NCBI RefSeq assembly: GCF_018977255.1 | Contig: NW_024704742.1 | Location: 124,560,001 to 124,624,000, forward strand | Length of the DNA stretch: 64,000 bases | DNA from: Callorhinchus milii | Lineage: Eukaryota | Direction of reading: 5' to 3' | Shown: one piece after another, positions 1 to 57,374 of the stretch | Numbering within the stretch: the stretch's first letter is position 1 | How the letters are laid out: each line of letters opens with the position of its first letter | Notes under the pieces: generated by a model | Seen by the model: the letters and a program-made list of their open reading frames with translations, nothing else | The model's database searches: none | Told to the model about the DNA's origin: nothing | Position numbers and translations under genes: made by a program

Positions 1-2682
1 GATTTTTGTTCTTATAGTTTACATTTTTTTAAAAGATTGTTTTCCCAGGAAGATATTATTTGGCAGAACATTTGCTACAGCAATGTTTACATCTGGATTT
101 TATACATTCTTTAATGCCTGTTCCCAGAGCTGGGTTTGAACTTAATTTTTTTAAAAGATGAACTTTTATGCATTAAAAAAAGTTTTTATAGAATCCTATT
201 GTCCTCCTCAAAATTAAAAGTTGTTTCTTATGCATCTATGAACTGGAGTTTGTTTATATCCCACACATGCTTGTGGTTTGTTTTGGCTGTGATTCACTAA
301 CAGTAAATGACAGTGATGTCCCTTTTATAAGTGATTGTAGATTGTAGGCACAAGAACTGAGAACAGCAAAGTCCTTCTGTAATGCACCTTGGGTGCTAAA
401 GCTAATTTTTTAAAATACATTCGTCAATGATTCCTAGCTTTAAGATTGAAACATCTGAGTGAGACATTCCTTTCGCTGCCAAATAGATTGACGGCGTGCG
501 CTTAATGTGTGCTAAAAGAAAAGTGGCTACACTGAGCTGCAAGAGAAATATTATCCTTTATTTTTGGATGTAATACAAAAATAATATTTTTGCAGCACAT
601 CCTACTGGAGGTTTAGCACAGGTACATTTAGTGATTTTTTGTGATAACTGTCTTTTATTTGTTCCACTATCTCCCCAGTATAGCAGAATCAAATGATGCT
701 GTCAAAACAAATACGTTTGATCTGTTATTGAAAAAACAAGGAAATTGCAACTAATTACTTTTTTCCTTCTCGCTCTTGCCAATTTTCTTTATCCCGAAAG
801 ATATTTTGTAAAATGGGGAGGAGGACAGCATGGATTTCAAGCTTCCTCACTGGGTAATGGCCTAAAAATAACACTAACATTTTAAAAAAAGTTTTAATGC
901 CTAAAATTGAAAAATGTTATGTTCTTGTACATTTAGTTTTTTTAAAAAGTCTTGATTCAGTGCAAGCAAGGCATGGTTGGAAGCCAAGCTGCTCCAGAAA
1001 ACAGAGCTGTTATTCAGCCCCAAACCACTAAGTATTGGGTAAAAATGACTGCAATTTCTGAATTTTATGAGAATTCATCTCTGTTGATAGACATCTCATC
1101 ACATACACAATTTATCCTCTCCCTTTAGTCCGTACTGATTTTCCATTATGCCTCTGCAACAGTTCCCTCTTGTGGTCAAAGTGCACACGTGCTCATGTGT
1201 TTGAGGTAAACACGATACTGTATGTTTTGGCCTCATAATAACAATCTTTACATTTGATATAACGTCTTTCTCACGAGAAGGACGTCTAAATTCACTGTAA
1301 GTTGTAGTACCTGTTCATTTTGTAGGGCTTTAGGGAAAAGAAAGTCTGCACCTTGGTATGCAGTGCAAAAAGCATTTGGTACCTCACTGCCCTTTTTAAT
1401 TGAGACTTTACTCTGAAATCAGATCTATTCCATCTGCGTAATATATGTGTAATATAATCCTGTTTTGAGGGTTTATTTCCCCCCAGATTTCCTTCATATT
1501 ATACCTTACAATGGTCTACACCAGCAAGTCACAAACAGCAATCAGATTGATTTAGATCACAGTCCCAAAGTCTAATCAGTGGTGAATCAAGTGAAACATT
1601 CGCAACAAACTGATGTGTAGTAAGGTGGCACAGCATGCCTGATCACCATCACCAGTGTGCGCTTTCCAATGGTAGAATACAGGCTTGTGCTCATGAATCC
1701 CACCTGGTGAGTTATTGACCCCAAGCAATCTATTGTGATGAATGTGGGCAGTAGGGGGGGCAGCCACTCACTCACAGGGAGGGACGCTTAATCTGCAGGA
1801 TAGTCAGCCCTGGCCTGTCTCATGCTGGTCATAGTGTAGAAGAGGACAAAAGGCAGATATATTGATTGAAAAGTTATCTTAAATCCAAGGTCAGCAACCA
1901 AATGTCCCTTTGAAGTGCAACAACACTATCAGCTGAATCAAGATTAAGCCCAAGAAAGTTAAACATCTTCTTAATCTGGAAACCACAGAATAAAATACGG
2001 CCCTCATTGACACAAGTGATTGTGCTCACAAAACCTTTCTCAAGGAATTAGCTAGCGTCTAGTCTCATCTATTTCAAGTATTCCTGTAAACAAAAATTGT
2101 CTAATCTGGGTGGAGAGCAGCAAATCATGAATCTATTGACAAGAAGGGGGCAGAGTCAGATCCCAATAAACAAAGATCAGAGACCCCAAATTCCTCATGA
2201 TTTTAGCTCTTTCTTAGCCTAAATCATGCAAAATTTTGGAAATTTCTCAAATTCAATCTTAATTTCGAAGGTGATTTTCTGCAGTTCTTAAAAAGTAAAC
2301 ATTTCTTTACACAAAGGTCATGAACATACTGAAAGCAATGCCCCCAGACCAAACATGTAGAATTGATTGAATGTTTGTAAGGGAGATGAAGAAACATTTG
2401 GGAAGGATATTGAGGGTTATGGAGAAACATTAGGGAAATGGGATTAAAATGATCAAGATTTGCTTTATATTTTATACAGTAAATTCAACACCCTGAATGG
2501 TATAATTCCTATTCCCTTAGCAGTTTATACTGAGGTGATTAATTCATTCAAAAAGGAGTTTGATAGATATTTGGTTGGGAACATAATTGAAGGATATGGA
2601 CTGAGATGATCAAATGTCTCATGGCACATGATAATTCATAGAGAGGAAGCGAATGGTGGGAGATGTTCTTTGCAATAACAAT

Positions 2683-42900: not shown

Positions 42901-45900
42901 AAGTTCATTTTATAAGTGTGTATATTATACAGTATTGGGCACTTGCTGTATTAAAATGAAACCAGCTCAATGACTTGGAGTAATTTATATGCTAGCAATT
43001 GTTATCTTTATTTTATTTTCTAGGGCAAATGCTTGATAGTCTTAAAATGATCTATTCCTAGAAACATTGTGACACCAATGAGGGTCTATTTAACAGGATT
43101 ATTGTGGTACTAGGGGCAATAATGTTAATTTTTGTTGTACTTCATCAGAACACTCAATTTCCAGCCTCCAACTTTGAATACTTAATAACATAAAAATGAG
43201 GAAACATCTTTCACCCCTATTCAACTCACTCCATTGTCCAGATATTGTTTGGGACTAACCTCAGCTGGAGATAGAACCAATTTAATTTTACTATTGAAGA
43301 GAACTTAAATATTTGAAAGAAAGGTTTGTATTTTGCAACGGCACAGCTGTCAACACATTAATATTACTGGATTGCTTCTCAGCAACAAAGCAGTACACCA
43401 GAAAGCAGTTCAACTTATTAGAGTTTGATGGTTAACTGTTATTCAACTTCAACTTACTTTTATGGCAAGTCTGTGATAAAGCGCATGACAACATGTATGA
43501 CACCAGCACTTCAGAAACAGTTTTTTCAAATTACGCAACTTATAAGTTACAAACTCATTTTGTCAAAAGGAAGGATAACAAACCGTTTCGACTAAAAAGG
43601 ATATTGATGTGTCATTGCACGAACTGTAATTTTCCTCACTGGATGAGTGTGAGCAAACAAAAAGAGAGACTTGCTGGTGTTGAAGCGAAACAAATACTGG
43701 GCACTAAATCTTGTGGATATCACACAGTAGGTCTGAAAAACAATGTATAATATTAGAGGAAACATCATCAGTTACCTAGCAAGTTAGCATTAGATATAGG
43801 AGAGTAGATGGCAGGCTGGCCGTGGGTTACAAGTTAGGAATTCAAGTGAATGTTACAGTAAGCTGTTTACAGAACACCAAATGATTGAATTACTTTTTTC
43901 AATTCACGACCAGACATTTTGAACACTGTAAAATAAACACCATTGTTTTAATAAAACTGTCATGCAGCAAGTGTTTAAATATGTTGGAGTGATGGACACA
44001 ATTGAAAGATAATTACGTTGGAATTTAAGGTTTATGGCAATGACATAGTATTACAGCTCTTCGGTTTCTGTGCCACAATATATTAGCAGTCACTTTGCCT
44101 ATGAATTCCTGAGGAAATGTGTTGCAACACATATTATGAAATTTAGGCATTTTACTCAAATTGAAATGGCTGAATTTATTTTGATTTTTTTTCTATTGTC
44201 ACCTTTCACACAATGTGTACTGAACCATCTCCGCACGCACATACAACTGAATCCAGCTTCCCTCTTCACATGGCTTATTGCTGCTGAGAATGAAGTGGCT
44301 TTGCACCTGGTAGTATAATTGCAGCATAAAGAGTTATGATAATTTCAAAAGTTCTTTGGTGGTTCATTTGATCAAATTAGGTGGTTTCTTTCTGCTTTTC
44401 ATGCAGTTACAATGTGGCTACATATATTGCAGGACACCCTTAGGAGGGGATGTCCTGATAGTTTAATTGGAAACCTTATATGTCATTAATTTGATAGGCG
44501 TCCACTGATAGGTAGCAATCTCATCTCTGGATCATGAAGCTTGTGGACTGAAGCCCCACATTGAGACTGGGACTTATAGGTTCAACTGACACCTTAGTGC
44601 CCAGCGTTGAAGGTGTCATCCTTTAGACAACATGGTAAACTGAGGACTATTTGCCTGCATTCATTTGGACAGTAAAGAAGCTATGCGTTGACACTACTGA
44701 AACACAGAAGAGAATTTCCCCTGATATCCTGTCCAAGTTTCCTTACTCCTCATGTCTCTCTTTACCTAACAGCAAGTAGGAACCCAGTTGTTAGTGATTC
44801 GCAGATCGCTTTCCGGGGTAATAATCCCGAAAAGAAAATGCCGTCACTCAATCCACGACTGTTTGTGGGACATTGCTGTGCACAATTGGCTGTCATGTTT
44901 CACCCACAAATTACACAATCCACCCACTTTACAATATATCCTGTGAAGCACTTTGATACGTCTCAACAACATGACAAGGCGCTAAATCAAATGCAAAGAT
45001 TATTATTATAAAGAAAAGTGAGCCTATCACCCCCATACCCCAGTGGATTAAATTCAATTATTCTCATTTTAAATGTCTGGATGGTGTCAATCCATCCTAT
45101 CTCTCAGACCTCCTGCAACTCTACTGTCCTGGCTGTCCTCTCTGATCAATGAACACCTTCGTATCCTCTGCCTAATCTACCCCACCATGGATGGTTGAGC
45201 ATTCAAGAAATTTGCTCCCACTCTCTGGAATTCTACCTTCATCCTGCCTTTCCTTCTTCACCTTCAAAACCTGCCTTAAGATCTACCTTTTCAATTACAC
45301 TTTCAGCTTCCTCCTCCATCCCTACAAATTCACATTCCCAGCTATATAAATATGTTTTAATTGTAAAACATCTCAAAGTACGTCACAGATAATTGCTGTA
45401 AAGTGAGGTGACTAGGTATTTGTAGGTGAATGCAACAGCTAATTTGTACACAGCATGAAGTGAATAACCAATATATCTGAGGGAATATTGGCCCCTTTTT
45501 TCAAATAGTATTGTGGGATCTTTTACATCTACCTGAATAGGCAGATAGGACCATCTAATTTGAAAAATGACACCTCCAATATTGCAGCACTCCTCCAGCA
45601 CTGCACTTGAGTACCACTGTACACTTTGAAAGTCGATCTCACAAGGTTTCCCACATTAATGTTGAAAGAGACTGGCTCACATAGCTGCCATGCTCAGGGC
45701 ATCAGGGGAGATGTAGGCCAATTGCAAGCCATTATGGGCGTCCACATTTTGCTCACACAGCCCAGCTGCTTCTCATGCTCACAGATAAGGTTTTTTTCTG
45801 TTGTGTAGATCTTCGGACTTATCGAAATCCAAAAGTAGATTCTCTGCCTACAAAGGTTTGAACTGACAACATTCTGATACAGAAGTGAGAGTGCTTGTAA

Positions 45901-48900
45901 CTGAGCGAGATGACATCTGGCTATATACCAATGAACCAGGGCAGAAGATAGCCGGTTTCTTTCTTTTAAGATATCTTAATTATATATCCCCTGTTCAGTT
46001 GCAGGATTAACATCGCCTTGTCTTCATCGGATTCCTGGTTGTAAGGGATCTGTCTCTGGAGCACAGGTTCAGGTTTGTGAAACTCAAGTTTGGGGGAGAA
46101 ACCAGGAAGTATTTCTTTACATGTAGGGCACAAAACAACTGGCAAGATTACCAGAAAGAGTGATTGATGTCAAGACCTGGGGTCATTTAAGGTACATACT
46201 CCATGCACCTGATATTAATCCCTCAAGAAAAAAAACAATATTAAAGTTGGTCACTTCAATCCACGACTGTGTGTGGGACACTGCTGTGGCAATTGGCTGC
46301 TGTGTTTTGCCCACAAACATACAGTCAATTCACTTTATATATTCTGTGAAGCGCTTTGAGACGTCCAGAAGATGTGAAAAGCACTATATCAAAAGCAAGG
46401 ATTATTATTATTATATTATTATTACTTCAATGTTGTTATGGAAACATGATAGCATTGGTATTTTGGAAAATTAAGTCAAATGTATCAAAGCAGTTGCTTC
46501 ATCCAAGCTTCTCATGTGAGCCTCTGATACTTGTTTTGTGTACAATGGTTGCATGTGGAGTTCAGAAACTATGAGTCCAACTGGATCACATACTTTGCTG
46601 TGCTTGTTTCCCAGTTCAGAGCATACCACATTTCTCAGTCCAACATGTTGAACTGGGTTTATATTTTTGTCTATAATGATTATTGCTGGTCTGATTGAAC
46701 CATTATGTGAGCTAATCTATACACTGATGGGTTTGTTTAAAGTTTTATTTTCAGTGCCTATTCTGGAGGAAGAAATTTCTCCTGCGTCTAGACTGACAAT
46801 GTTTTCTTAGCATCTTAATGAGTAAAAAAAATGGCAAATTGTTAAATTCAGTCTTAAATTTGAAGCCGTTTTTCTGAAGGTTTTTTTCAGAACTAGGGAA
46901 AATTGGTTCAAAATTCAGATTGAATTTAAGAGTTTACCAAATTCTGCATGCCCTGAAGTGCTAAGGAAATAGTGAAAGCCTATGGTCAGCTAAAATATCT
47001 GCCTTCCGTTCTCCCCAAGATTCCAAAAGTTCAATTTTCTTCTACCATTGACATGAAGCTGCTGCAAATTTAAGGTTTACTGAGGTGTTCAAACCAATGG
47101 GCTGTTATTCAAAGTCTAACATCATAATCTTGCCCACCAACCCCTCTATATCTCCACCCATCCATTCAGGGCTTATTACTCCTCGTGTCATGCAAGGAAC
47201 TCTAGATAAGATGTGCCAGTCAAAACACTCACAGGATTTCCAATCTGTTGTTACTTATATATATAGGATTTCTTAGTGTCTTGATTTCAATTAATGCAAC
47301 TTGAGAAGTTCATGCCTTATTACGTCATCGAGACATCTTAAAGTGCTTCACAGGATTTTACTGTGAGGTGTAATGACTGTGTATTTATAGGCAAACATGA
47401 CAGGCAATGTTGAACACAGTAATTTGTCACAAACAGCCATGTTTGTCAAATTTTATTTGGGAGAAATAGTGGGAGAAACACCCTACTCATTTTTAAATAT
47501 TGCTCAGTAGTTGTGGGATCTTTAACATCCATGTGAACAAGCATAGAGGACCTCATTCAAAACATCTCATTCAAAAGGCGGCACCTCTGACAATGCACTG
47601 AAGTGTTAGCCTGGACTGTTAGTTCAAAATCCTGATGTTGTGCTTGATCCCATAACCTTCCCACTCAAAGGTGAGAGGCTGATCTGGCTCATATGGTGTT
47701 AAATCCTAACACAGACACAATGGGCCAAAGGCCTGATTCTCTGTGTGTGTAACACTCTGTAATGCTTTCCTCCTTCACACTGTTCTATTGCTCTTGCATC
47801 AGTATTTTCTAAAATTGGGGAAGTTTCCATTAAATCTCAAATTATTCATGACTTTAAAAGATCTGGAAAGATCCGATATGACTATGTGCATGATATGTTA
47901 ATCTTACTCATCTCTGGCCAAGAACACTTCTGTCATTCATCTGCCATCACCTTGGATATTTCCAAAGCATAGTCAGGATTTTGTACTATGCACGTATTAT
48001 CATCCAATGGTTTTCCATCAAAGATATGTTTAAAGCTATCAAGTTTCCTCTTAAATAGCTCTATCTGTTCTGCTGTTGATTGTTCGTTCTCTGGCTAATT
48101 TTCTTTCAACTCAAGGGTAAATTAGCGCAAAATACTAAATAAAGCTCTGGGTCTGGAAAATTTATTATAAGACATCAAGAAAGATTAGCTTTTATGCAGC
48201 ATAACATAGTTATAATTATCATTGAATATATTTTCAATATTCACGTATTAATTCAGATTATAGCAAGTTTGTGGAAAGTTACAGATATTTACATTTTTCA
48301 AAAGCCAGTTTAACCAATGCAAAGATATCTTGAAATAATATGTAAGTATCAAACTCTGCATGTTGATTCAAGTTGCAGTATTAAATTTAGTGGAAATTTA
48401 CAGTGGTAAGTTATGAATCGTATGTCATAATTAGTGACATTCAGACAGCAGCACAAGCAACAAGTAACTGCAAGGGGTTGGATAAAGTACTTTTATTTAT
48501 TCTTTTGTTCATGTTGCCTTTCTGTAATAATCCTGCCCACTGCCTGACGCATACCTTCTCAAAGCTTAAGTAAGATATACAATGCTGCTTATATAAGCAT
48601 CATATACAAGCGCTCCAGGACACTGTCCCACCGTGAAGGGTGCTATATAAATGAAAGTTGTTGTTGTTATAAATGTGGTCATTCCCTTATGGTTATTTGT
48701 GGAACATTGCTGTGCACAGATTGTTTACCTATTACACTACACAGTCTTTGCAGGAAATGCTGTAAAGTACTTTGAGACGTTTCGACGATGTGTTAAGACA
48801 TATCAAATGCAAGGATTGTTACACGCTTAAGGAAGTTGCACTGATCAGAATAAATTTGAAGCATTTCAACATTTTTTAAATGAGATAGCATGAACCATGA

Positions 48901-51900
48901 TAAAAGAATGAAAATAATAATAATAATCCTTGCATTTGATATAGTGCCTTATCACGTCTTCTAGACGTCTCAAAGCGCTTCACAGAATACATTGTAAAGT
49001 GAATTGACTGTATATTTGTGGGAGAAACATGGCTGCCAATTGCACACAGAAGTGCCTCACAAACAGTCGTGGATTGAAGTGACCAATTTATTATTGTTTT
49101 TTTCTTCTGGAGGGATTATTATCAGGCATATGGAGTATGGAAACTTGCCCAAGGTTTCGCCCTGCTGGAAAATGAACCCAAGTGTCTTGCTTGCGAGGCG
49201 AGTGCTCTGACCACAGAGCTACAGGACTCCACAAGAAGGCACTATTATTATTGCTAGATTGTGGTCAAAACTTTTCATTGATGTTTTTATACATTGAACA
49301 CAAATTATATCTGTAAAGGGATACTTCATTCAGGTCACTGATTGTGTCTCCACAATTTTTTTGAAAACGTACATCGAATAATTTACATTGTACAAAAGTT
49401 GCACCTGCTCTCTCACAAACAGTTGCAGAGGTCATGAGTTGGGTCCCATGTACTGTACATTATGACAGATTGTTCTTAGTTTTCCAGGAACTAAGCCTGC
49501 TTTGAAACTTCCCGACAGCTTCTTTCAACATCATGCTGGAATCATGCTTCAAAGACTTCAATGCCCTTTTGTTCAATTTCTTCTTTTGCGTGTTTATTTC
49601 CAATTTCTATATTTATCAACTGTCTGACAAGGGTTCCAACATAATAATATGGTTCAGCCAATATATACTGTAACTGGGATCAACATATTGGCATAAAATA
49701 TTGCCATTGTTTCAAGACGTAAAGCGCTCTGGGACGCTATCCCGCGTGAAGGTTCTACATAAATGCAAGTTGTTGTTGTATTTTTGAATCGATTAAACTG
49801 GCTTTTGAAACATGTTCCTTCTATCTAAGCAACAATCGCTTCCAGATTCTCTATTCTGACCAAAAGACATTATCTGGACATTCCCTCTGAACTGTCTGAA
49901 GGATGTTTTAACATTTATTTCCACGTTACATTGTTAGAGAGTGCAGTACCAATATGCCTGTCAAACACCAACATTAGAACAGACTTTTAATAAAAGCCAC
50001 AGTCCATGAGCAAAACAATAATAATAATCCTTGCATTTGATATAGAGCGTTATTATGTTGTCCAGACTATTAAAACAAACTGCAAATGTAAATGTCCCCA
50101 ATTATGAAGTTCCCCCAGAACATTAACTTGCATTTTTTGCCTTCACATCCTGACTGAATTGCAATCCAAACGCTCAATTCCTTATGTTAGATTTAATAAT
50201 AATAATCCTTGCATTTCCAAACAATAATGGGTTTTGCCCACAAATATACAGTCAATTCACTTTACAGCATATTTTGAGACGTCTAGAAGAGGTGAAAAGC
50301 GCTAGATCGAATGCAAGGATTATTATTGACATTATTATTGCATTTGATTCGCAGCATTTGCAACTTTTTTGAAAAAAAAATAAAAACGTGGTATCTGTTT
50401 CCCATGCAAGGGGGAAAAAAAAGAATGCATGTACGGATAATAAACTTTACGATATATCAAATCGAAAAAAAAAAGTGTTTTTTTTTTGGTTTGCAACCCA
50501 ACCCATTGACTGCTTACAAAACCATTGCAACTACTCGGACTCGATAGTTTGTTGCACCGAATCAGCTGACTGCCAGCACCCTATGAGCCCCCTCCCTCCC
50601 TCTCTCTCTCCCTCCCTCCCTCCCTTTGCTGCAGTTCTTTGCAAAGTTCGTCGCCGGGTTTTAAGGGATGGGAGTTGTAGTGACGCACTAGTTAAATGAC
50701 GGCCGAGGTACAGTACTTTTTATTGGTAATATTGAGGGCATTTAAGCATTGCACTGAGACACGGCGGGCGGGGAGCGCTGCACGGCCGCTGTGCAGGGAG
50801 CAGTGGAACCCTGTGCTGGCTCCGGGCTCCGGGCGGGTGATTGACACATCAGCACCTGGTGCTCGCGCCCTCCCCCCCCACCGACCTCAGCTGTCAATCA
50901 GCGCCTCCCGCCCCGCCCCCCCGCAGCTGTCAATCAGCGCCTCCCGCCTCGCCCCCCCGCAGCTGTCAATCAGCGCCTCCCGCCCCGCCCCCCCCGCAGC
51001 TGTCAATCAGCGCCTCCCGCCCCGCCCCCCCGCAGCTGTCAATCACCTGGTGGGTACAGCTCCAGCTCCATTTAATAATAATAATAATAATCCTTAATAA
51101 AATTATCCTTAATAATAATAATAATAATTTGTGCCTCTCTGCAGCTCAGAAAGCGCAGAGCTCACACCCGGGGAGTTTGAATTCACCCCGTTTTATTCTG
51201 ACTCTCCAATGCAGGGCGGGTGGGGGGGGTGGCGGGGGGGTCCCGGCTGCATTGTCGGAGGTGCCGTCCTTTGGGTGAGACGTTAAAACGAGGGTGAGCG
51301 TTAAAGATTCCCATGGCACTATTCGACAAGGGAAAGGAGCGTCTCCCAGTCTCAGGACCGACAATCCCCTCCCGGAAAGTTAACCATTCACCGCATTTGC
51401 CGACAAATAACGTGAGAGTCATACTTTGCCTACAAATACTTGTGAAGAGCTTTGAGACACCTTGGTGAGGTGAAGAGGCACCATATGAAATACAAGGTTT
51501 ATTATTACCACTTTGACTGTGCTTTTGACCACCTATTTCTATTCCCCCTCCCCGCCCACCCCCACACATACAAAAAAAAAATTCAGCCCTCCTCAGCCTT
51601 TTTTAGAGCATGTGAGACGTTCTCCCAACATGAAAGACTCCATATAAGTTTAAATTGTATTTTTGCAAGGACTTACAGAAGGGATAGATAATGGAAAGCA
51701 GGTCGAAGAGGTATATTTTGAGATGTGTGGTGGGAGCTTGTCAGAGGGATTCCTGTAATTGGAGACCTGCGTTCTCCGGGATTTGGTGACCAGGGTACGT
51801 TCCTTCTTGGGGAGAGAGTGTGCATTTCATAATGAACAAATGGAAACCCTACCTAAAGTTGGACCCTGTCAAATGGTGCTTCGGTATAATGCTTTGGTCC

Positions 51901-54900
51901 ATTTATAATGTGACTGTACAGTGGCCCCACATTATACCAGAATTGTAGTGCAGTTGTGACCTGGGAATTCTGACCAGTAGCCATTTTTACATCACTACCC
52001 ATTATAATGTAATTATCACTCCAAACCACTGAGATATATGGAATTATCGTTAGCTTGTCTCAAAGATTCTTAAGCTTGTGATGGGTTTGTTGAACACCTG
52101 GCTGAACAAGGAAGAAAATATATTGGTGCTTCCACTTAGAATCGTGGTGGGCACCAAACTCAGAAAGTTTACTATCACAGCATAATAAACTTTAGATAAC
52201 TTACTGCTTTGTGTGCAAACACTATGTGTGTTAGACCTTTAAATTTAAACACATTGAAGTTGTTTTTGTTGTCGTTTCCTCTCTTACAACGGTATTGTCG
52301 TTCTCATTTGCAGAGTATGTTTTGGCTCCAAAATTACTTGTTGTTCTGAGTGACTTATTCTTTCCTATGGAAACTTCTTCCTTAGCTTTGAAGCTGGTTG
52401 TCTGTAAATTATTTGAAGAACTACAAAAAGGTGGCTTTGACCTTTTTTTGATTCCTAACCTCAGGACTCCTATGCTGCAAAAGCTGGATGTTGAGTATCT
52501 GTTGAATTGAGGGTCAGCCTTCGTGGAATGGTAATAAGTCAGCAAAAAAGAGACAGGTAGAGGAAAGGAGGAGAAGAAAGAAAGGAAAAAAACAGTAACA
52601 AAGTACTGTAGATTGTCACTGAGTAACCATAGTGACAGATCATTACTGTTATCCGTTCTTCATTGAGATGCTTTCATACATCAGCACACAGAAACGCTTA
52701 ATAATAATAATCCTTGCATTTGATATAGCGCTTTTCACAACTTCTAGATGTCTCAAAGCGCTTCACAGAATAGATTGTAAAGTGAATTGACTGTATATTT
52801 GTGGGCGAAATGTGGCAGCCAATTGCGCACAGCAATGTGCCACAAACAGTTGTGGATTGAAGTGACCAATTTATTATTTTTTTCTTGAGGGTCTATCATC
52901 AGGCGTGTGGAATAAGGAAACTTACCCAAGGTTTCACCCTGCCAGGAATCGAACCTAGGTCTCTCCAGCCCTGAGTGTGAGTTGGGATACTGCTGGAGTC
53001 TAACCAGCTAAAAACACATAGCTTGCCATTGATAGCACTGTCTGGCAAACTTTCCCTTCCTTATGAAACTACGTAGGGCTTTGGCTTGTAGGGTCAACAT
53101 TAACCGAGTGGAAGGATTCCCTGCCACCAGTGACTGGTCTTCTGTTCCACGTCCTGCTGATGAGCCAGAAGGTCTTGGATGTCATCAGCAGTGCCCTGTA
53201 ATACTGTGGAACCCCCTGGCTCAGGAACTGGACTACCGAGATGTCGATTCCGATATTCCGTTGCCAATCGTGTCACCTTGGAGCCAGTTCAGCTCCCCCA
53301 AGGAGTGCTTGTGTGGAATGTAAACACCAGTGAGGACCAGTTGGGCTGAATGACTTATTTCCTTGTAATATTACTCTGTGAAGTTCTATGTAAACTGTAT
53401 GTATACATTGTAATGAGACTAGCTCTCTCTTGGTCCCTTGATGATGCTACATAATAATTCTATCTTTTTATTTGGATTGCTTTTTGGTGTTTACCATACT
53501 GTAGCACTGTAGATGAGTGACAAGAATCTGGTTCATGATCGATAATAATTAACTATGGAATTAAGTCAAGGAGAAATAGTAAAAACATCCAGCTTGGTTG
53601 AGGCCAGGACACTAAACTCATTTAAAATAAGAGCTTGATGTGGTGATGGGAGGATGGCTAGGTAGGTATTCTAGAAGGATAAGATCAGATGGGCCTTCTA
53701 CAACCAAACTGCTCTTGTGAATGGCATTAAATTCAATTTCAATCAAAGGGATTCTTAGTACCTTCCAATAATATTTGTAAATTTTGCCACAAAATTGTGG
53801 TTTTGACAGTGAATATTGTACGTCAGTCTGGCTCAATTGTAGCACTTTCGCCTCCGAGTCAGAAGGTTGTGGGTTCAAGCCCCACATCAGGATTTGGAAC
53901 CCATATAGTTTAAGATGACGCTCCATTGCAGTGCTGGGGATGTGCTGCTGGAGGTTGTTGGAGGTCTAGTCTTTCCGATGTGGTGTTAAATCAAGGTCGC
54001 ATCTGCCTGTTCAGACGGATGATGAAGATCCCTATTAGAAAAGATAAGGGAGTTCCTCCTAGTGTCCTGTCCAACAATCTCCCAAATAAAAATTGGTCAC
54101 TCATTCTGTGGCTGTTTGTGTGACATTGCTGTGCGCAAATTGGCTGCAACTTTCACCCACAAAAACACAAACGGTCTTTATACACTTTATAGAATATCCT
54201 ATGATATCCTATAGCATTCTTCTGATGTGAAAGGCTATACTAAATGTAAGGTTTATTATTGACATAGCTGGTTCTGGATTTAAAACAGATGCTCTCTGTT
54301 AAATTGAGAGCATTTGATTATAAATTGACAGGCAGAAAATGATGTACAGTATTCCAAATGTGACCTCACTGGTGATGTATGTATACAAGCTTAGATTTAT
54401 TTCTTTCATCTCTTAGCCACATGTGTAACCTAGTACTGTATGTGATTTGCTTGGTTTTTCATTGACTGGAAACTATATTTGCACCAAAATCCTTTTCCTT
54501 CTACATCTCTGCTAGTGGATAACCATTCTTCCTTGTACTCACTCATTATTTTGTGCTGTCTAAATCAAAATATTTTCTTAAAGTACCGTCATGTTTTCTG
54601 CAAACTGTTGGTGTATCTTGCATTAATTCTGTTTTTTATTTTTTAAAACAGGTATCAGTGCTGTATTTTGCCAGGAGTGCTGAGTTGTCAGGAGTTCGTT
54701 CTGAAACACTTTCTGTGCCACAACAATTAACCTCTATGCAACTCTGGGAGAAAATAGTTAATAAACACCCAAGGTAGAAAACAAATGCCATATCCTTCAA
54801 TATGTTGAAGGATCCTACTTATCTTGACTGATTTATTCAATTTAAACTGCTAGAACATTTTACTGTCTAAGAACTGTTGTAAAATTAAGGAATTAAATAT

Positions 54901-55956
54901 ATTTTTTCTGAATATTGTATATTACTGGCTAAATAAAAATGGTAGTTTATGTGTCAGCCTGGATCTGTTTGTAGCACCCTCGCCTCTGAGTCAGAAGGTC
55001 CATGATTTTGAACTCATATAGTCTTATCTGACACTCCAGTGGAGCGCTGGAGGTGTGCTGCATTGGTGGATATACTATCCTTCAAATGAGATGTTAAAAC
55101 ACGGTTGTCTTCCTGTTCAAGTGGATATTACAGATCCCATGGCACAATTTGAAAAGAGAATTTTCCCACTGCCCCACCCATTTAATCCTCAAAATACATG
55201 GCTGTTTGTGGGATATTGCTGGGTACAAATTAGCCACTGTGTTCACCTACAAGTGCCACCGAACAATACACTAATTCCTGTGAAGAGCCATGAAACATCC
55301 TCCTGAAGTGAAAGGTGCTATATCAAATTGAAGGATTCTTATTATTATTAAGGCAGATCCTGCTGACCTCACACCATAACCTTTTTTTTTGTGAGACAAA
55401 TATCTTGCTACATTGTGTGCTCATACCTTCTGGAAAACCGTGAATTTCCTTAAGCATTATTGACTCACACCGGTAGGGAACAATCCAGTCACAACAACAG
55501 CAACAACAACTTGCATTTATATAGCGCCCCCTCAGGCAGGGTGGCGTCCAACAGTGCTTGTATCCACTTTATATCGCGTGTTAAAAAATAATGATGAATT
55601 GCTGTTATTTCCTGTTTTTTCCTTACCTGCCCAACAGTCTCATTGCCATAAGGGATCACGTCCTTCTTGCAGTTCGTCAGGAATATATCCTCCTGGGAGA
55701 TCAAATTCTGTTCCTCCAGCCAGGCGACGAGATTGCAGTCATCCCCCCTCTCAGTGGGGGCTAGCTTTTGGGATACGTATGCAGGTATGTCCAACTTCTC
55801 CTCAAATATGGGATCAATCACAGCAGGACGCACGTTATAATTCCTGATTGATTCTTTAATTTTAGCCAGGTCCAATGATTCAGTTGATCCCTGATGTTTG
55901 AACTTCCCTTTTTGTCTGCTTCCTCGTAGTCTGGAGTCTCTGTTATAAGGAGCCAT
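5700..55956 (-). CDS. Voltage-gated sodium channel alpha subunit, Nav2 (DSC1/BSC1/NaCP60E-like) type; 19 coding exons in window, incomplete at 3' end (continues below position 1)
   Basis: Exons join in frame to 1111 codons covering N-terminus, DI S1-S6, DII S1-S6 and DIII S1-S4. All introns are GT-AG except one AT-AC. Pore motifs are TLDYWEN (DI) and CGEWIEP (DII). Confidence 0.93.
8670..8843 (-). CDS. Channel exon 18, DIII S2-S3 (TLDDKYSR...FNMEMVFK...[15 protein letters not shown])
   Basis: 174-nt phase 0-0 exon, YFTNxWxxLDF motif; not in ORF track. Confidence 0.97.
9167..9357. mobile_element. Short element with about 40-bp imperfect terminal inverted repeats (MITE-like)
   Basis: cttgggtcaattttgtgtatttcttaatgcaatttct versus reverse complement of agaaatcccattaagaaacgtagcaaatttgatcacaag. 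Confidence 0.5.
9478..9567. repeat. Direct tandem duplication, 45 bp x2
   Basis: cattggaatggattagaagggaaaag(a/g)aca(t/c)ttgacaagtttttt repeated. Confidence 0.9.
9945..10375 (+). mobile_element. Deu-domain SINE (SacSINE1/AmnSINE1-like), family B
   Basis: tRNA-like head gtcagcctggctcagttggtagcactc; central GTTAAA..GAGG...TTAAAGATC.CATG..CT..TT.GAA core; shared 3' tail. Confidence 0.75.
12170..12625 (-). mobile_element. Degenerate CR1 LINE fragment
   Basis: ORF 12277-12486 ...[23 protein letters not shown]. Confidence 0.8.
13622..14037 (-). mobile_element. Deu-domain SINE family B
   Basis: Reverse match to head (gtgctgctaactgagc, ttctgactcagaggcg) and core. Confidence 0.72.
14761..15120 (-). 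CDS. Channel exon 17, II-III linker end and DIII S1 (LETLEEVQ...DPCFP...[22 protein letters not shown])
   Basis: PCFP and FxxxxLFVILLS motifs; donor CTG|gtaagt. Confidence 0.95.
15786..15964 (-). CDS. Channel exon 16, II-III linker ([14 protein letters not shown]...ENGSAVVM)
   Basis: ttttttcgtag acceptor, ATG|gtaata donor; phase 1-0 bridges exons 15 and 17. Confidence 0.78.
16942..17188 (-). CDS. Channel exon 15, DII S6b and start of II-III linker ([16 protein letters not shown]...KCTT)
   Basis: [10 protein letters not shown] motif; donor A|gtaaga, phase 1. Confidence 0.93.
17243..17601 (-). mobile_element. tRNA-derived SINE family A
   Basis: Same head and core; (AAT)n tail. Confidence 0.88.
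17925..18107 (-). CDS. Channel exon 14, DII pore loop and S6a ([40 protein letters not shown]...AGNFL)
   Basis: Filter Glu in CGEWIE; PRW motif; phase 0-0; not in supplied ORF track. Confidence 0.98.
18704..18871 (-). CDS. Channel exon 13, DII S4b-S5 ([17 protein letters not shown]...GNLT...[12 protein letters not shown])
   Basis: [14 protein letters not shown] motif; phase 0-0; not in supplied ORF track. Confidence 0.97.
21774..21959 (-). CDS. Channel exon 12, DII S2-S4a ([13 protein letters not shown]...[10 protein letters not shown]...LSMIRSLRM)
   Basis: GWNxFDFIIV motif; phase 0-0. Confidence 0.97.
22030..22445 (+). mobile_element. Deu-domain SINE family B
   Basis: Head and gatgccgtcctttggatgag...aaagatcccatggcac core. 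Confidence 0.75.
24101..24348 (-). CDS. Channel exon 11, end of I-II linker and DII S1 (...[10 protein letters not shown]...[21 protein letters not shown]...GNT)
   Basis: WxCC and ITICIxxNTL motifs; AG/GT bounded. Confidence 0.96.
25853..25970 (-). CDS. Channel exon 10, I-II linker ([39 protein letters not shown])
   Basis: ttcttttctag acceptor, A|gtgagt donor; phase 0-1 bridges exons 9 and 11 exactly. Confidence 0.8.
26924..27112 (-). CDS. Channel exon 9, DI S6 ([39 protein letters not shown]...KEKM)
   Basis: NLxLAVVAxSY motif; phase 0-0; donor ATG|gtaagg. Confidence 0.95.
28651..28795 (-). CDS. Channel exon 8, DI pore loop (RCPTNFTC...[34 protein letters not shown])
   Basis: NPNxGYTxFD motif and filter Asp in TLDYWEN; AG/GT bounded. 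Confidence 0.98.
29139..30276 (-). mobile_element. L2 LINE fragment interrupted by a SINE (insert 29752-30045)
   Basis: Both halves are collinear with the L2 copy at 61769-62540; [18 protein letters not shown]. Confidence 0.85.
29752..30045 (-). mobile_element. tRNA-derived SINE family A
   Basis: Reverse-complement match to 30281-30589. Confidence 0.88.
30281..30589 (+). mobile_element. tRNA-derived SINE, family A (A-box TAGCTCAGTGG, B-box-like GGTTTGATTCC, 3' GCAAGGA(TTA)n tail)
   Basis: Full-length copy; many related copies in window. Confidence 0.9.
32990..33670 (+). mobile_element. Degenerate L2 LINE 3' fragment
   Basis: [30 protein letters not shown] tail. Confidence 0.8.
33877..33937. 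repeat. (AAT)n microsatellite, about 20 units, derived from SINE tail
   Basis: Direct reading. Confidence 0.95.
33877..34238 (-). mobile_element. tRNA-derived SINE family A with expanded tail
   Basis: Same head and core. Confidence 0.88.
34421..34481 (-). CDS. Channel exon 7, DI turret ([19 protein letters not shown])
   Basis: atttcacag acceptor, GG|gtgagt donor, CGN motif, phase 1-2. Confidence 0.92.
35447..35650 (-). CDS. Channel exon 6, DI S4-5 linker, S5 and turret ([12 protein letters not shown]...[15 protein letters not shown]...IQNQ)
   Basis: AG/GT bounded, GLKTI and [16 protein letters not shown] motifs. Confidence 0.97.
37668..37945 (-). mobile_element. L2 LINE fragment
   Basis: [27 protein letters not shown]. 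Confidence 0.85.
39750..39830. repeat. AT-rich low-complexity minisatellite (TATACACAT/TATACTAT units)
   Basis: Direct reading. Confidence 0.7.
40625..40710 (-). CDS. Channel exon 5, DI S3-S4 ([28 protein letters not shown])
   Basis: ttttgcag acceptor, G|gtgaga donor, S4 RxxRxxK pattern, phase 2-1. Confidence 0.95.
41447..41575 (-). CDS. Channel exon 4, DI S2-S3 ([20 protein letters not shown]...[16 protein letters not shown])
   Basis: AG/GT bounded, 129 nt, E..K and WNWLDF motifs. Confidence 0.97.
42788..42868 (-). CDS. Channel exon 3, DI S1 ([26 protein letters not shown])
   Basis: AC acceptor, donor GA|gtaagt, hydrophobic S1, phase 2-2. Confidence 0.93.
42869..43604 (-). other. U12-type (minor spliceosome) AT-AC intron, 736 nt
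   Basis: 5' ATATCCTTTT; branch site TTTTCCTTAAT about 10 nt before terminal AC; only this junction keeps the frame. Confidence 0.93.
43605..43732 (-). CDS. Channel exon 2 ([43 protein letters not shown])
   Basis: Acceptor tttttcag; conserved Nav pre-S1 segment; ends at U12 donor ATATCCTTT. Confidence 0.95.
48913..49230 (-). mobile_element. tRNA-derived SINE family A
   Basis: Same head and core. Confidence 0.88.
50669..50681 (-). promoter_or_regulatory. ACTACAAyTCCCA promoter motif (ZNF143/THAP11-associated)
   Basis: Plus-strand TGGGAGTTGTAGT = ACTACAACTCCCA, 14 nt before the MOCS2A ATG. Confidence 0.7.
50696..50707 (+). CDS. MOCS2: MOCS2 exon 1 coding part (MTAE)
   Basis: ATG ACG GCC GAG|gtacag in CpG island; phase 0 joins exon 2. 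Confidence 0.8.
50696..55764 (+). CDS. MOCS2: Molybdopterin synthase sulfur-carrier (small) subunit MOCS2A, complete, 86 aa; exons 50696-50707, 54652-54773, 55638-55764
   Basis: Spliced translation [97 protein letters not shown] and the C-terminal PPxSGG di-glycine are MoaD/MOCS2A hallmarks. GT-AG sites in compatible phases. Confidence 0.96.
50888..51045. repeat. GC-rich minisatellite, 36-37 bp unit CAGCTGTCAATCAGCGCCTCCCGCCCCGCCCCCCCG, about 4.4 copies
   Basis: CAGCTGTCAATCA at 50888, 50924, 50960, 50997, 51033. Confidence 0.95.
51140..51510 (+). mobile_element. Deu-domain SINE family B (CpG-retaining copy beside the CpG island)
   Basis: ggaggtgccgtcctttgggtgagacgttaaaacgagg...ttaaagattcccatggcactattcg. 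Confidence 0.75.
52700..52966 (-). mobile_element. tRNA-derived SINE family A (5'-truncated head)
   Basis: Same core. Confidence 0.85.
53820..54260 (+). mobile_element. Deu-domain SINE family B
   Basis: Head tggctcaattgtagcactttcgcctccgagtcagaaggttgtgggttcaagcccc plus core and tail. Confidence 0.78.
54652..54773 (+). CDS. MOCS2: MOCS2 exon 2 ([40 protein letters not shown])
   Basis: T-rich acceptor aaaacag, AG|gtagaa donor, MOCS2A similarity. Confidence 0.96.
54952..55350 (+). mobile_element. Deu-domain SINE family B
   Basis: Same head, core and tail. Confidence 0.75.
55627..55956 (-). CDS. Nav2-like channel, putative coding exon 1 (MAPYNR...[35 protein letters not shown]...NETVGQ)
   Basis: ATG at 55956 preceded by acceptor ttttgtggttgcag (exon would start at 55977); 110 open codons; strong phase-0 donor CAG|GTAAGG matching phase-0 exon 2. 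T-ESL and DPxFExxxxIP resemble conserved Nav N-terminal motifs. Overlaps MOCS2 exon 3 antisense. Confidence 0.65.
55638..55784 (+). CDS. MOCS2: MOCS2 exon 3 (MOCS2A C-terminus, stop 55762-55764, then 20 nt spacer)
   Basis: Acceptor cccaacag, donor CAG|gtatgt, LAVRQEY...[14 protein letters not shown]. Confidence 0.96.
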
Positions 55957-56644
55957 ACTGTTCTGTATGTAGCTTCACTGCAACCACAAAACATTAGTAA
56001 AAAATGAATGCAGTAAGTAATACATTTAAAAAAAAGTTAATTGCCAATGTTTTAAAGTATTATAGTAATAATAATAAACCTAACATTTGGTGGAGCACTT
56101 TTCACACTTTTCACATTCACTTTACATTGTAAAATTCAGTGACTTTGTGTTTTGTGGGTGAACACGACAGCTAATTTGTGCACAACAGTGTCCCACAAAC
56201 AGCCATGAAGTGAATGACCAATTTTATTTGGTGGGATACTGAGAGAAATTCCCTTCTCTTTTCCATGGGATCTTTAATATCCACCTGAACAGGCAGACAG
56301 GGCCTCAGATTAACTTCTCATCTGATGGATGGTATCTCCAACAATGCAGCACATCCCCAGCACTGCATTGTAGGCCTCGAATAAGGGGAACTTTCCTTTG
56401 TAAAGTGTGGGATGTCAGGATTTGACTATGGAACATTTTCCACTCTTTGACCTGTTTTTATTTGATTTAACACACACGAACAGCACGTGCAACACATGCA
56501 CAACACAGCCATCGCCATGATAAAAAAGTATTCAAACCTTTGCAACCATAAATCTACAGATATCAAATTCATACGGTAGATGTGCTTCACTGTTCATAAT
56601 TAGACATTGTACGAGTGGTCTCAATCAGAGAACTTGGTTCTCCC

Positions 56645-57140
56645 AACAACAACTTGGATTTACGTAGCGCCCCTCAAACAGGGTAGTGTCCCAGAGCGCT
56701 TGACAGTGGCAGACCACGACGCTGAGCCAGGGGGTGGGGGAGGTGAACTTAGGCACAGTTGGAGAGGAAGGTCTTTAGGCCCAACCTGAAAATGGAGAAG
56801 CAAGGTGGAGGGATAGAAGTAAAGTGTTCCAGAGTTTTGCGGCCTTGTGGCTGAAAGCGCGGTCACTGATGATGGAATGGAGGGCACAAGGCACATGCAG
56901 AGAGCCGGAGCCAGTCCGGAGGCAGCGGGTGGTGGGTTGGGGAGTGCCAGGGCCTGAAGGGATTTGAAGACGAGTGTGACGATATTGAAATTGATCTGTT
57001 TGGCAACAGGGAGCCAGTGGACCTTGGCTAGAACTGGTGTGGTGGAGGTACAGAGTTTAGTATGGGTGAGTATGCAGGCAGTGGAAATTTGGATCAGTTG
57101 GATTTTGTCGATGGTGGAGCTGGGGAGACCGGTGTCTGGG
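56645..57140 (-). mobile_element. L2 LINE 3' fragment in MOCS2 intron 3
   Basis: ORF 56660-57205 TPVLAKVHWLPVAKQINFNIVTLVFKSL; TTG tail. Confidence 0.8.
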
Positions 57141-57253
57141 AACAGTAAGAATTGCACAAAGAAGATTCCTGTAAAGATCACCGATGCAGTCCAAAAGGGA
57201 GACATTGATAGATTTTGTGATTTACACAGTTGTATCTTTTTTTTTCAGTGACC

Positions 57254-57374
57254 ATGCATGAGAGTGACGATGAGCCCAAGGACTTGATAAAAGTGACCTA
57301 TGAGAAGCTTTCCGCCGATGAAGTTTCAGAGTCAGTAAAATCTCCATCTTGTGGAGCTGTGTCTTTGTTTATAG
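57254..57374 (+). CDS. MOCS2: Molybdopterin synthase catalytic (large) subunit MOCS2B, first coding exon (exon 4 begins 57249); further exons not found in window
   Basis: MHESDDEPKDLIKVTYEKLSADEVSESVKSPSCGAVSLFIG matches the MoaE/MOCS2B EKLSxDEV...SPxCGAxSLFxG segment; tttttcag acceptor, G|gtaagt donor. Confidence 0.95.

What the first reader, a model, noticed from the sequence alone, without database searches (positions are those of the whole stretch)
50580..57374. Head-to-head interleaving: MOCS2 promoter and exons 1-2 sit in channel intron 1, so the channel promoter would lie inside the MOCS2 transcription unit
If channel exon 1 is real, the units overlap by at least 5.3 kb (50696-55977). 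The acceptor at 55978-55979 implies a further non-coding channel exon within MOCS2 intron 3 or beyond. Polymerases would run towards each other and the mature mRNAs share 147 nt of perfect complementarity (all of MOCS2 exon 3). Inference: scope for transcriptional interference, dsRNA, ADAR editing or endo-siRNA, and possibly a constraint on loss of the channel gene.
Basis: inference. Interest (0 to 1): 0.7.

Follow-up and report, generated by a model that had tools for sequence, protein, structure and literature searches.

The report
Nav2–MOCS2 head-to-head pair, overlap unproven
In the elephant shark an ancient ion-channel gene (Nav2) lies head to head with the metabolic gene MOCS2; the channel's first exon is unknown and is more likely just outside MOCS2 than inside it, although an unusually exon-like stretch running backwards across MOCS2 exon 3 keeps the overlap possible.

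Summary
The geometry is right; the interleaving is unproven. MOCS2 exons 1-4 (+ strand) are spliced in RNA-like contigs. The minus-strand channel is elephant-shark Nav2 (DEEA filter). Its most upstream homology-supported exon (48094-47951) has no ATG, so a further exon is needed.

Such patterns are rare by chance. However, it resembles none of 177 Nav-family N-termini and is in no gene model retrieved. Its major-class donor also fits exon 48094 poorly: that exon lacks a major-class acceptor, unlike 23 of 23 other channel acceptors scored.

A rival lies left of MOCS2. The only GTATCC-type (minor-spliceosome-like) donor in 82 kb is at 49324, in frame with an ATG, and a branch-like site sits 15 nt before 48094. 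That would make an ordinary divergent pair. It is imperfect, and one DNA run has a frameshifting insertion there.

Available RNA could not test the channel's 5' end. Odds: divergent 0.45, interleaved 0.25. Interference, dsRNA and editing remain speculation. The scan noted the Nav2 gene and this overlap before only in this genome.

The parts
50400..51400 (.). CpG-rich island holding the MOCS2 promoter and exon 1
   Evidence: CpG obs/exp 0.61-0.80 in 400-nt windows starting 50201-51201; GC up to 0.64
50670..50681 (-). ACTACAACTCCC, an exact match to the ACTACANNTCCC motif over-represented in bidirectional promoters
   Evidence: motif described in PMC3082894 (passages)
50633..50707 (+). MOCS2 exon 1 (5' end at or left of 50633; MOCS2A ATG 50696)
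   Evidence: contig of run X3 from 50633 joined to exon 2; joint seen in X1, X9, X10
54652..54773 (+). MOCS2 exon 2
   Evidence: RNA-like contigs; open frame with exons 1 and 3; ThiS E=0.083
55638..55784 (+). MOCS2 exon 3 (147 nt): MOCS2A C-terminus ending GG; the MOCS2B frame is also open from an ATA at 55685 into exon 4
   Evidence: contigs; ThiS E=6.8e-5; frames
57249..57374 (+). MOCS2 exon 4 with MOCS2B ATG at 57254
   Evidence: contigs; MoaE E=0.013
55627..55977 (-).
   Evidence: donor 12.1, acceptor 5.9; single copy in the genome; rare by chance; no homology
49325..49435 (-). Candidate exon B: ATG 49435, 37 codons, minor-spliceosome-like donor GAA|GTATCCCTT at 49324, phase 0; unverified
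   Evidence: 1-nt insertion at 49355 in DNA-like run X11
48110..48117 (-). U12-like branch sequence CCCTTGAG, 15 nt before the AG of exon 48094, with no pyrimidine tract
48095..48175 (-). In-frame ATG (48175) and 27 codons with two stops (TAA 48124, TAG 48097) directly upstream of exon 48094; weak likeness to the Nav F-x-x-F-T-x-E motif
   Evidence: both stops present in DNA-like run X11
47951..48094 (-). Nav2 exon encoding the second half of the conserved N-terminus (GKPLDD); no ATG; donor phase 0
   Evidence: adds 5.9-6.0 bits over the next exon alone on two N-terminal profiles; best hit is an insect DSC1-like channel segment, E=0.087 among 177
43605..43732 (-). Nav2 exon TYCVIS..., U2 acceptor phase 0, followed by an AT-AC intron
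   Evidence: 72-76% identical to shark orthologues; donor ATATCCTTT at 43604

Best explanation
Nav2 and MOCS2 lie head to head, and the channel's coding sequence likely starts left of the MOCS2 promoter, so that the two genes would be an ordinary divergent pair rather than interleaved. The likeliest route is a short first coding exon ending at 49325, joined by a minor-spliceosome (U12, GT-AG) intron to exon 48094-47951. That gives about 85 residues before the TYCV exon. Transcription would start in or just left of the shared CpG island, or at a tissue-specific site in the 1.2 kb between. Shown: gene order and strands, MOCS2 splicing, Nav2 identity, the missing ATG and the missing U2 acceptor at 48094. 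Inferred: the U12 intron, exon B, the start site. On this reading the open antisense frame over MOCS2 exon 3 is a coincidence, helped by C-rich codons left by the MOCS2A/MOCS2B double frame.
For: 1) In-frame acceptors of exon 48094 downstream of the stop score -1.9 to -11.1; 23 of 23 other channel U2 acceptors scored give 3.4-12.3, with pyrimidine fraction 0.55-0.90 against 0.40 here. U12 introns lack a pyrimidine tract and have a branch site close to the 3' end (PMC3584512, passages). 2) A branch-like CCCTTGAG lies 15 nt before the AG; about 0.017 expected by chance for 33 positions. 3) The only GTATCC[CT][CT] on the minus strand between -22000 and 60000 is at 49324; 0.038 expected in 2.5 kb from the local rate of 9 in 588 kb. 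It is in phase with an ATG frame. 4) 37+48=85 residues, against 88-89 for the first exon of three Nav1 paralogues in this genome. 5) This gene has another U12 intron, and sodium-channel genes carry U12 introns (PMC1557818, passages). 6) The island carries an exact ACTACANNTCCC motif. 7) Candidate A adds no score to N-terminal profiles: 40.4 vs 40.9 and 48.9 vs 50.0 bits with and without it. 8) C-ending codons in MOCS2 exon 3 (15 of 41 vs 21 of 173 elsewhere) cluster in the part where the MOCS2B frame is open (11 of 25 vs 4 of 16), so they need no antisense gene.
Against: The donor has C at +7 where four AT-AC donors of this genome have T, and A at -1 where T is preferred. The branch site is imperfect and 15 nt away against an optimum of 11-13. 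DNA-like run X11 has a 1-nt insertion at 49355 that shifts exon B's frame; a later ATG at 49374 would then be in frame, but a varying essential exon is awkward unless the reference has a homopolymer error. Exon B has no homology to Nav N-termini, an unremarkable codon score (38% of 477 intronic open stretches score as high) and no good U2 acceptor in its open frame (-0.4 at best). Candidate A is hard to dismiss as chance. The splice matrices were recalled approximations, and all probabilities are post hoc.
Confidence: 0.45

Rival explanations
1. Interleaved genes. Exon 55977-55627 is a real Nav2 coding exon fed by a non-coding exon and promoter inside or beyond MOCS2 intron 3. It joins exon 48094 through a weak acceptor, or joins the good phase-0 U2 acceptor at 43732 directly as an alternative N-terminus. 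MOCS2 exon 3 would then be read as protein on both strands and the promoters would be convergent.
For: Strong donor (12.1) and an acceptor (5.9) within the range of true ones, with a branch-like CTAAT about 20 nt upstream. Phase 0 matches both downstream exons. Not a repeat. 0 equal hits in 3 Mb of simulated DNA. In real DNA outside repeats (940 kb, both strands) 8 other loci passed relaxed thresholds: 1 is a known Nav2 exon, 1 an Ig exon, 6 have no clear Pfam match and may be real exons or chance. Among 28 real intron ends only this one has an antisense donor of 11 or more. Whole-exon codon score is above 97% of 477 intronic open stretches. Its first residues weakly echo the P-F-T-R-E-S motif (0.18 expected over the exon). 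No variant inside it in run X11.
Against: No homologue among 72 candidates of 194-2000 aa (weak evidence by the tool's own warning), none in the Atlas above 0.77, PDB or Pfam, and best E=5 against 177 Nav-family N-termini. It lacks the conserved first-half motif (best 23-column score 2.8 against 11-44 for true ones). None of 24 chondrichthyan gene models retrieved contains it, though none has a credible N-terminus either. The 57 codons outside MOCS2 exon 3 score no better than 22% of intronic stretches. An open antisense frame over exon 3 is expected with P=0.12-0.42 from the MOCS2A peptide alone. A U2 donor needs a U2 acceptor, which 48094 lacks.
Confidence: 0.25
2. The ancestral first coding exon ran from ATG 48175 to 47951 and its 5' part has decayed (two stops). 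The channel now starts at some other unrecognised point, makes an N-terminally shortened protein, or is a young 5'-broken gene.
For: In-frame ATG and an LR*FTLE stretch resembling the conserved motif (0.04 expected in 30 windows). This read-through scores as well as any model on the profiles (42.1 and 51.2 bits). Good U2 acceptors at 48146 (6.7) and nearby lead into closed frames. Both stops are present in run X11.
Against: Motif-to-PL[ED] distance is 37 residues against 47-96 in 24 homologues. The 24 exon blocks aligned to a shark orthologue show no lesion inside exons, so two stops in 27 codons do not fit whole-gene decay. Codon score is intron-like.
Confidence: 0.15
3. Exon 55977-55627 is used, but in an antisense RNA that is not the channel mRNA (a non-coding or read-through transcript from within MOCS2 or from the integrin-alpha gene beyond it), while the channel starts left of MOCS2.
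For: Good splice sites without channel homology. An integrin-alpha gene lies on the same strand to the right. Cis-antisense pairs most often join a coding and a non-coding RNA (PMC1449890, passages).
Against: It does not explain why the frame is open for 110 codons from an ATG.
Confidence: 0.1

Closest known systems
Vertebrate Nav2 of ghostshark, coelacanth and lampreys (Zakon et al. 2017; not held, seen only as cited in PMC6259924, passages and section 20)
   Same: Same gene: DEEA filter residues, 100% match to Callorhinchus milii models.
   Different: Its first exon and its relation to MOCS2 are not described in anything read; the retrieved gene models lack the N-terminus.
Bidirectionally promoted (divergent) gene pairs with CpG islands and ZNF143-linked motifs (PMC1449890, PMC3082894; passages)
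   Same: Head-to-head layout, CpG island, exact ACTACANNTCCC motif. Human MOCS2 has a named divergent transcript, MOCS2-DT (name seen in PMC12534706, one passage).
   Different: No channel start site is mapped; one partner is broadly expressed and the other reportedly restricted, which may need a separate promoter.
Head-to-head overlapping cis-antisense pairs (PMC1449890, passages)
   Same: The class is common.
   Different: Here both partners would be protein-coding over the same 124 nt in exact codon register, which is far rarer (own knowledge); the shared exon is unverified.
Bicistronic MOCS2 (PMC9607355, passages)
   Same: MOCS2A in exons 1-3 ending GG; MOCS2B in a second frame. An ATA at 55685 gives exactly the 77-nt overlap reported for human.
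   Different: That codon is ATA, not ATG; the first MOCS2B ATG is at 57254, preceded by an ATG-CAG-TGA mini-ORF across the exon 3/4 junction.

Membership tests
Head-to-head cis-antisense pair | Two units on opposite strands | tested here: met
   MOCS2 +; Nav2 -
Head-to-head cis-antisense pair | At least 20 nt of exon shared by both mature RNAs | tested here: inconclusive
   147 nt if 55977-55627 is an exon; statistics favour it, homology and acceptor type do not
Head-to-head cis-antisense pair | Channel start site downstream of the MOCS2 start site | not testable with these tools
   Only contigs available; they cannot show starts or strand
Bidirectional promoter pair | CpG island and bidirectional-promoter motif | tested here: met
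Bidirectional promoter pair | Divergent start sites under 1 kb apart | not testable with these tools
   Channel start site unknown; candidate ATG 49435 is 1.2 kb from 50633
U12-type GT-AG intron (49324-48095) | No polypyrimidine tract at the 3' end | tested here: met
   pyrimidine fraction 0.40, score -11.1
U12-type GT-AG intron (49324-48095) | Conserved 5' splice site | tested here: inconclusive
   GTATCC matches; +7 is C where four AT-AC donors here have T; -1 is A, T preferred
U12-type GT-AG intron (49324-48095) | Branch sequence 10-20 nt from the 3' end | tested here: inconclusive
   CCCTTGAG at 15 nt, weaker than TTCCTTAAT of the gene's AT-AC intron
Nav2 (DSC1/BSC1-type) channel | Selectivity filter D-E-E-A in a four-domain Nav-like channel | tested here: met
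   ITLDYW, LCGEW, ATFEGW, TTAAAW; four Ion_trans stretches in the shark orthologue
Nav2 (DSC1/BSC1-type) channel | N-terminal F-x-x-F-T-x-E-S-L motif before the PLE[ED] motif | tested here: inconclusive
   No minus-strand open frame from 48100 to 70600 reaches the range of true motifs (best 9.3 vs 11-44)
Bicistronic MOCS2 | ThiS-like and MoaE ORFs on one spliced RNA | tested here: met

The most novel reading that the evidence does not exclude
A vertebrate exon read as protein on both strands and in up to three frames: MOCS2A and a MOCS2B extension on the + strand, and the Nav2 channel N-terminus on the - strand in exact codon register. The channel promoter would sit inside MOCS2 and fire towards the housekeeping promoter, so that the two genes exclude each other or form a 147-bp duplex in the cells that express the channel.
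Probability: 0.22. Interest if true: 0.8.

Novelty: new member of a known kind. Interest (0 to 1): 0.38.

Why it matters
If the divergent reading holds, the locus is ordinary, but the analysis still gives a testable first exon and a second minor intron for a vertebrate Nav2 whose public models all lack the N-terminus; cloning the channel for physiology needs that. If the interleaved reading holds, it would be a rare case of antisense double coding in a conserved vertebrate enzyme, with built-in convergent transcription. One RT-PCR in a Nav2-expressing tissue, or one alignment of shark genomes, decides between them.

Tried and rejected
RNA: no listed holder is on record as RNA; 10 of 14 runs are guessed RNA and hold 0.13-0.29 of the words of 55627-55977, about what MOCS2 exon 3 alone supplies. 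Seven of those 10 were laid. The bin holding channel exon 43732-43605 had no cover in 4 of 4, and the bins for exon 48094-47951 and for 55795-56069 had none in 3 of 3. Because the undisputed channel exons are also uncovered, this says nothing about candidate A or B. No difference inside MOCS2 exon 3 was listed for these runs; contigs drop rare variants, so editing is untested.

Homology: a profile of three Nav1 first exons found neither candidate A nor exon 48094 above noise among 4558 frames; profiles of 28 and 9 N-termini did not either (its exon-3 frame was off by one and was redone). A search with the shark N-terminal region returned 2 proteins, neither with a credible start. Lamprey and paddlefish models begin inside domain I. 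Exact look-up of candidate A peptides: 0 of 2 in the collection. Metagenome scan for MOCS2A exon 3 gave 13 loci at 45-64% identity; they were not examined further.

C-ending codons in exon 3 were considered as a sign of antisense coding and rejected, since the MOCS2B frame explains them. A possible donor at 50517 for a non-coding channel exon scored under 4 and is changed in run X11 at low depth. The sigma-70 scan is irrelevant for a vertebrate.

Literature: Zakon et al. 2017 is not held, so its text and supplements, which may give tissues and the 5' sequence, were not seen. Searches listed no paper on Nav2 with MOCS2; subscription journals are not covered. No structure or complex prediction was run.


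Full report
Identity. Channel exons of the window match Callorhinchus milii protein models at 100%. The filter residues are D, E, E, A, which defines Nav2 according to PMC6259924 (passages and section 20 read); that review cites a single Nav2 in ghostshark, coelacanth and lampreys, expressed outside the nervous system. The gene runs on the minus strand from about 48094 to -21471, and 24 blocks aligned to a shark orthologue show no lesion inside exons. A follistatin N-terminal domain lies just past its 3' end, and an integrin-alpha exon lies on the minus strand near 89.8 kb. The order is FST, Nav2, MOCS2, integrin alpha. That humans keep this block without the channel is recalled; only a LOC257396-FST intergenic label was seen.

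MOCS2. Contigs of runs guessed to be RNA join 50633-50707, 54652-54773, 55638-55784 and 57249-57374 (X3 has all four, X2 and X7 exons 2-4, X6 exons 3-4; first joint in 3 of 3 runs, second in 2 of 3). Exons 1-3 give MOCS2A (ThiS); exon 4 onward gives MoaE.

The problem. Exon 48094-47951 is a real part of the channel N-terminus: it adds about 6 bits over the next exon on two profiles, and its best hit among 177 N-termini is the matching segment of an insect DSC1-like channel (E=0.087). It has no ATG, and a TAG lies directly before it. That stop and a second one at 48124 are present in an independent DNA-like run. An upstream coding exon is therefore needed. None of 24 chondrichthyan models retrieved supplies one.

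55977-55627 has an acceptor scoring 5.9, ATG 55956, 110 open codons and a donor scoring 12.1 in phase 0 (matrices are recalled approximations). It is single-copy. Chance is low: 0 equal and 7 relaxed hits in 3 Mb of simulated DNA; P=0.002 to 0.047 when only intron 3 is simulated; 8 other non-repeat loci at relaxed thresholds in 940 kb of real DNA, of which 2 are identified exons and 6 are unclassified. Thresholds were chosen after the fact. Against it: no homologue, no gain on N-terminal profiles, and no match to the conserved first-half motif (a shorter 9-column test gives 0.18 expected). The 57 codons outside MOCS2 exon 3 have an undiagnostic codon score. The overlap part scores well, but it is the reverse complement of C-rich codons (15 of 41 end in C). 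These cluster where the MOCS2B frame is open (11 of 25), from an ATA that gives the 77-nt overlap reported for human MOCS2 (PMC9607355, passages). Given the MOCS2A peptide, an open antisense frame over exon 3 has P=0.12-0.42.

The acceptor argument. All 23 other U2 acceptors scored in the channel lie between 3.4 and 12.3. The in-frame AGs of exon 48094 score -1.9 to -11.1, and the good acceptor nearby (48146, 6.7) leads into closed frames. A U2 donor such as candidate A's therefore has no good landing site on this exon. It could still join 43732 directly, which is phase 0 and U2.

Candidate B. U12 introns lack a pyrimidine tract and have a branch site near the 3' end (PMC3584512 and PMC1557818, passages; the consensus figures were not visible, so I calibrated on four AT-AC donors of this genome). 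CCCTTGAG lies 15 nt before the AG at 48095. The only GTATCC[CT][CT] on the minus strand in 82 kb is at 49324, in phase with ATG 49435. Chance expectations are 0.017 and 0.038. The resulting 85 residues match the 88-89 of three Nav1 paralogues. The island carries an exact ACTACANNTCCC motif. Weaknesses: C at +7, A at -1, an imperfect branch site, no homology, an ordinary codon score, and a one-base insertion at 49355 in run X11. With that base a later ATG (49374) is in frame. Exon B does not exclude a non-coding exon further right, but nothing points to one.

Third reading. An in-frame ATG at 48175 with an LR*FTLE stretch may be the decayed start of the ancestral exon (0.04 expected by chance; spacing 37 against 47-96 in 24 homologues). 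This could be true together with A or B.

Mechanistic claims. If A is real, convergent transcription and 147 nt of complementarity follow from geometry. Interference, dsRNA, editing and siRNA need co-expression in one nucleus, which could not be examined. Overlap as a brake on channel loss is weak: the channel body could be deleted without touching MOCS2, and Nav2 is reported missing from mammals.

Verdict. Observation partly confirmed; interpretation undecided. Divergent pair with a start left of MOCS2 0.45; interleaved 0.25; decayed start 0.15; separate antisense RNA 0.10. These odds are my judgement, not a computed result. Both divergent and head-to-head overlapping pairs are common classes (PMC1449890, passages); only the double-coding version would be remarkable. 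Interest 0.38.

Noticed in passing
P0039 (Polyodon spathula model): A 159-residue paddlefish model is 64-75% identical to chondrichthyan and lamprey Nav2 domain I and at most 50% to the other Nav-family proteins listed: a Nav2 piece in a ray-finned fish, where the review read says Nav2 is absent. Earlier scan notes report bichirs, sturgeons and salamanders too.
   Followed up: partly
window 55685-57256 (+): The MOCS2B frame is open from an ATA at the position giving the human 77-nt overlap to ATG 57254; an ATG-CAG-TGA mini-ORF spans the exon 3/4 junction 2 nt before that ATG. MOCS2B may start by re-initiation or at a non-AUG codon.
   Followed up: partly
window 55464-55847 (+): A third frame across MOCS2 exon 3 is also open for 127 codons, so all three sense frames and one antisense frame are largely stop-free here.
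   Followed up: partly
window 49606-49325 (-): The frame of candidate exon B extends upstream for 94 codons with a single stop at 49462, in purine-rich sequence; it may be an older, longer exon.
   Followed up: partly
window 55675-55724: Contigs of runs X9 and X10 break inside MOCS2 exon 3, which may mark an allele, an error or editing; contigs cannot tell.
   Followed up: no
window 43604-42868 (-): AT-AC intron with donor ATATCCTTT and branch TTCCTTAAT, at the same position as in three Nav1 paralogues; probably one reason why public models miss the N-terminus.
   Followed up: yes
window 50897-51050: Four to five tandem copies of a roughly 33-nt GC-rich unit containing CAGCTGTCAATCA in MOCS2 intron 1, within the CpG island.
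   Followed up: no
G000:C1:124530417-124530605 (-), L015: Follistatin N-terminal domain about 8 kb beyond the channel's last exon; Nav2 occupies the side of MOCS2 where human has a divergent transcript (position recalled).
   Followed up: partly
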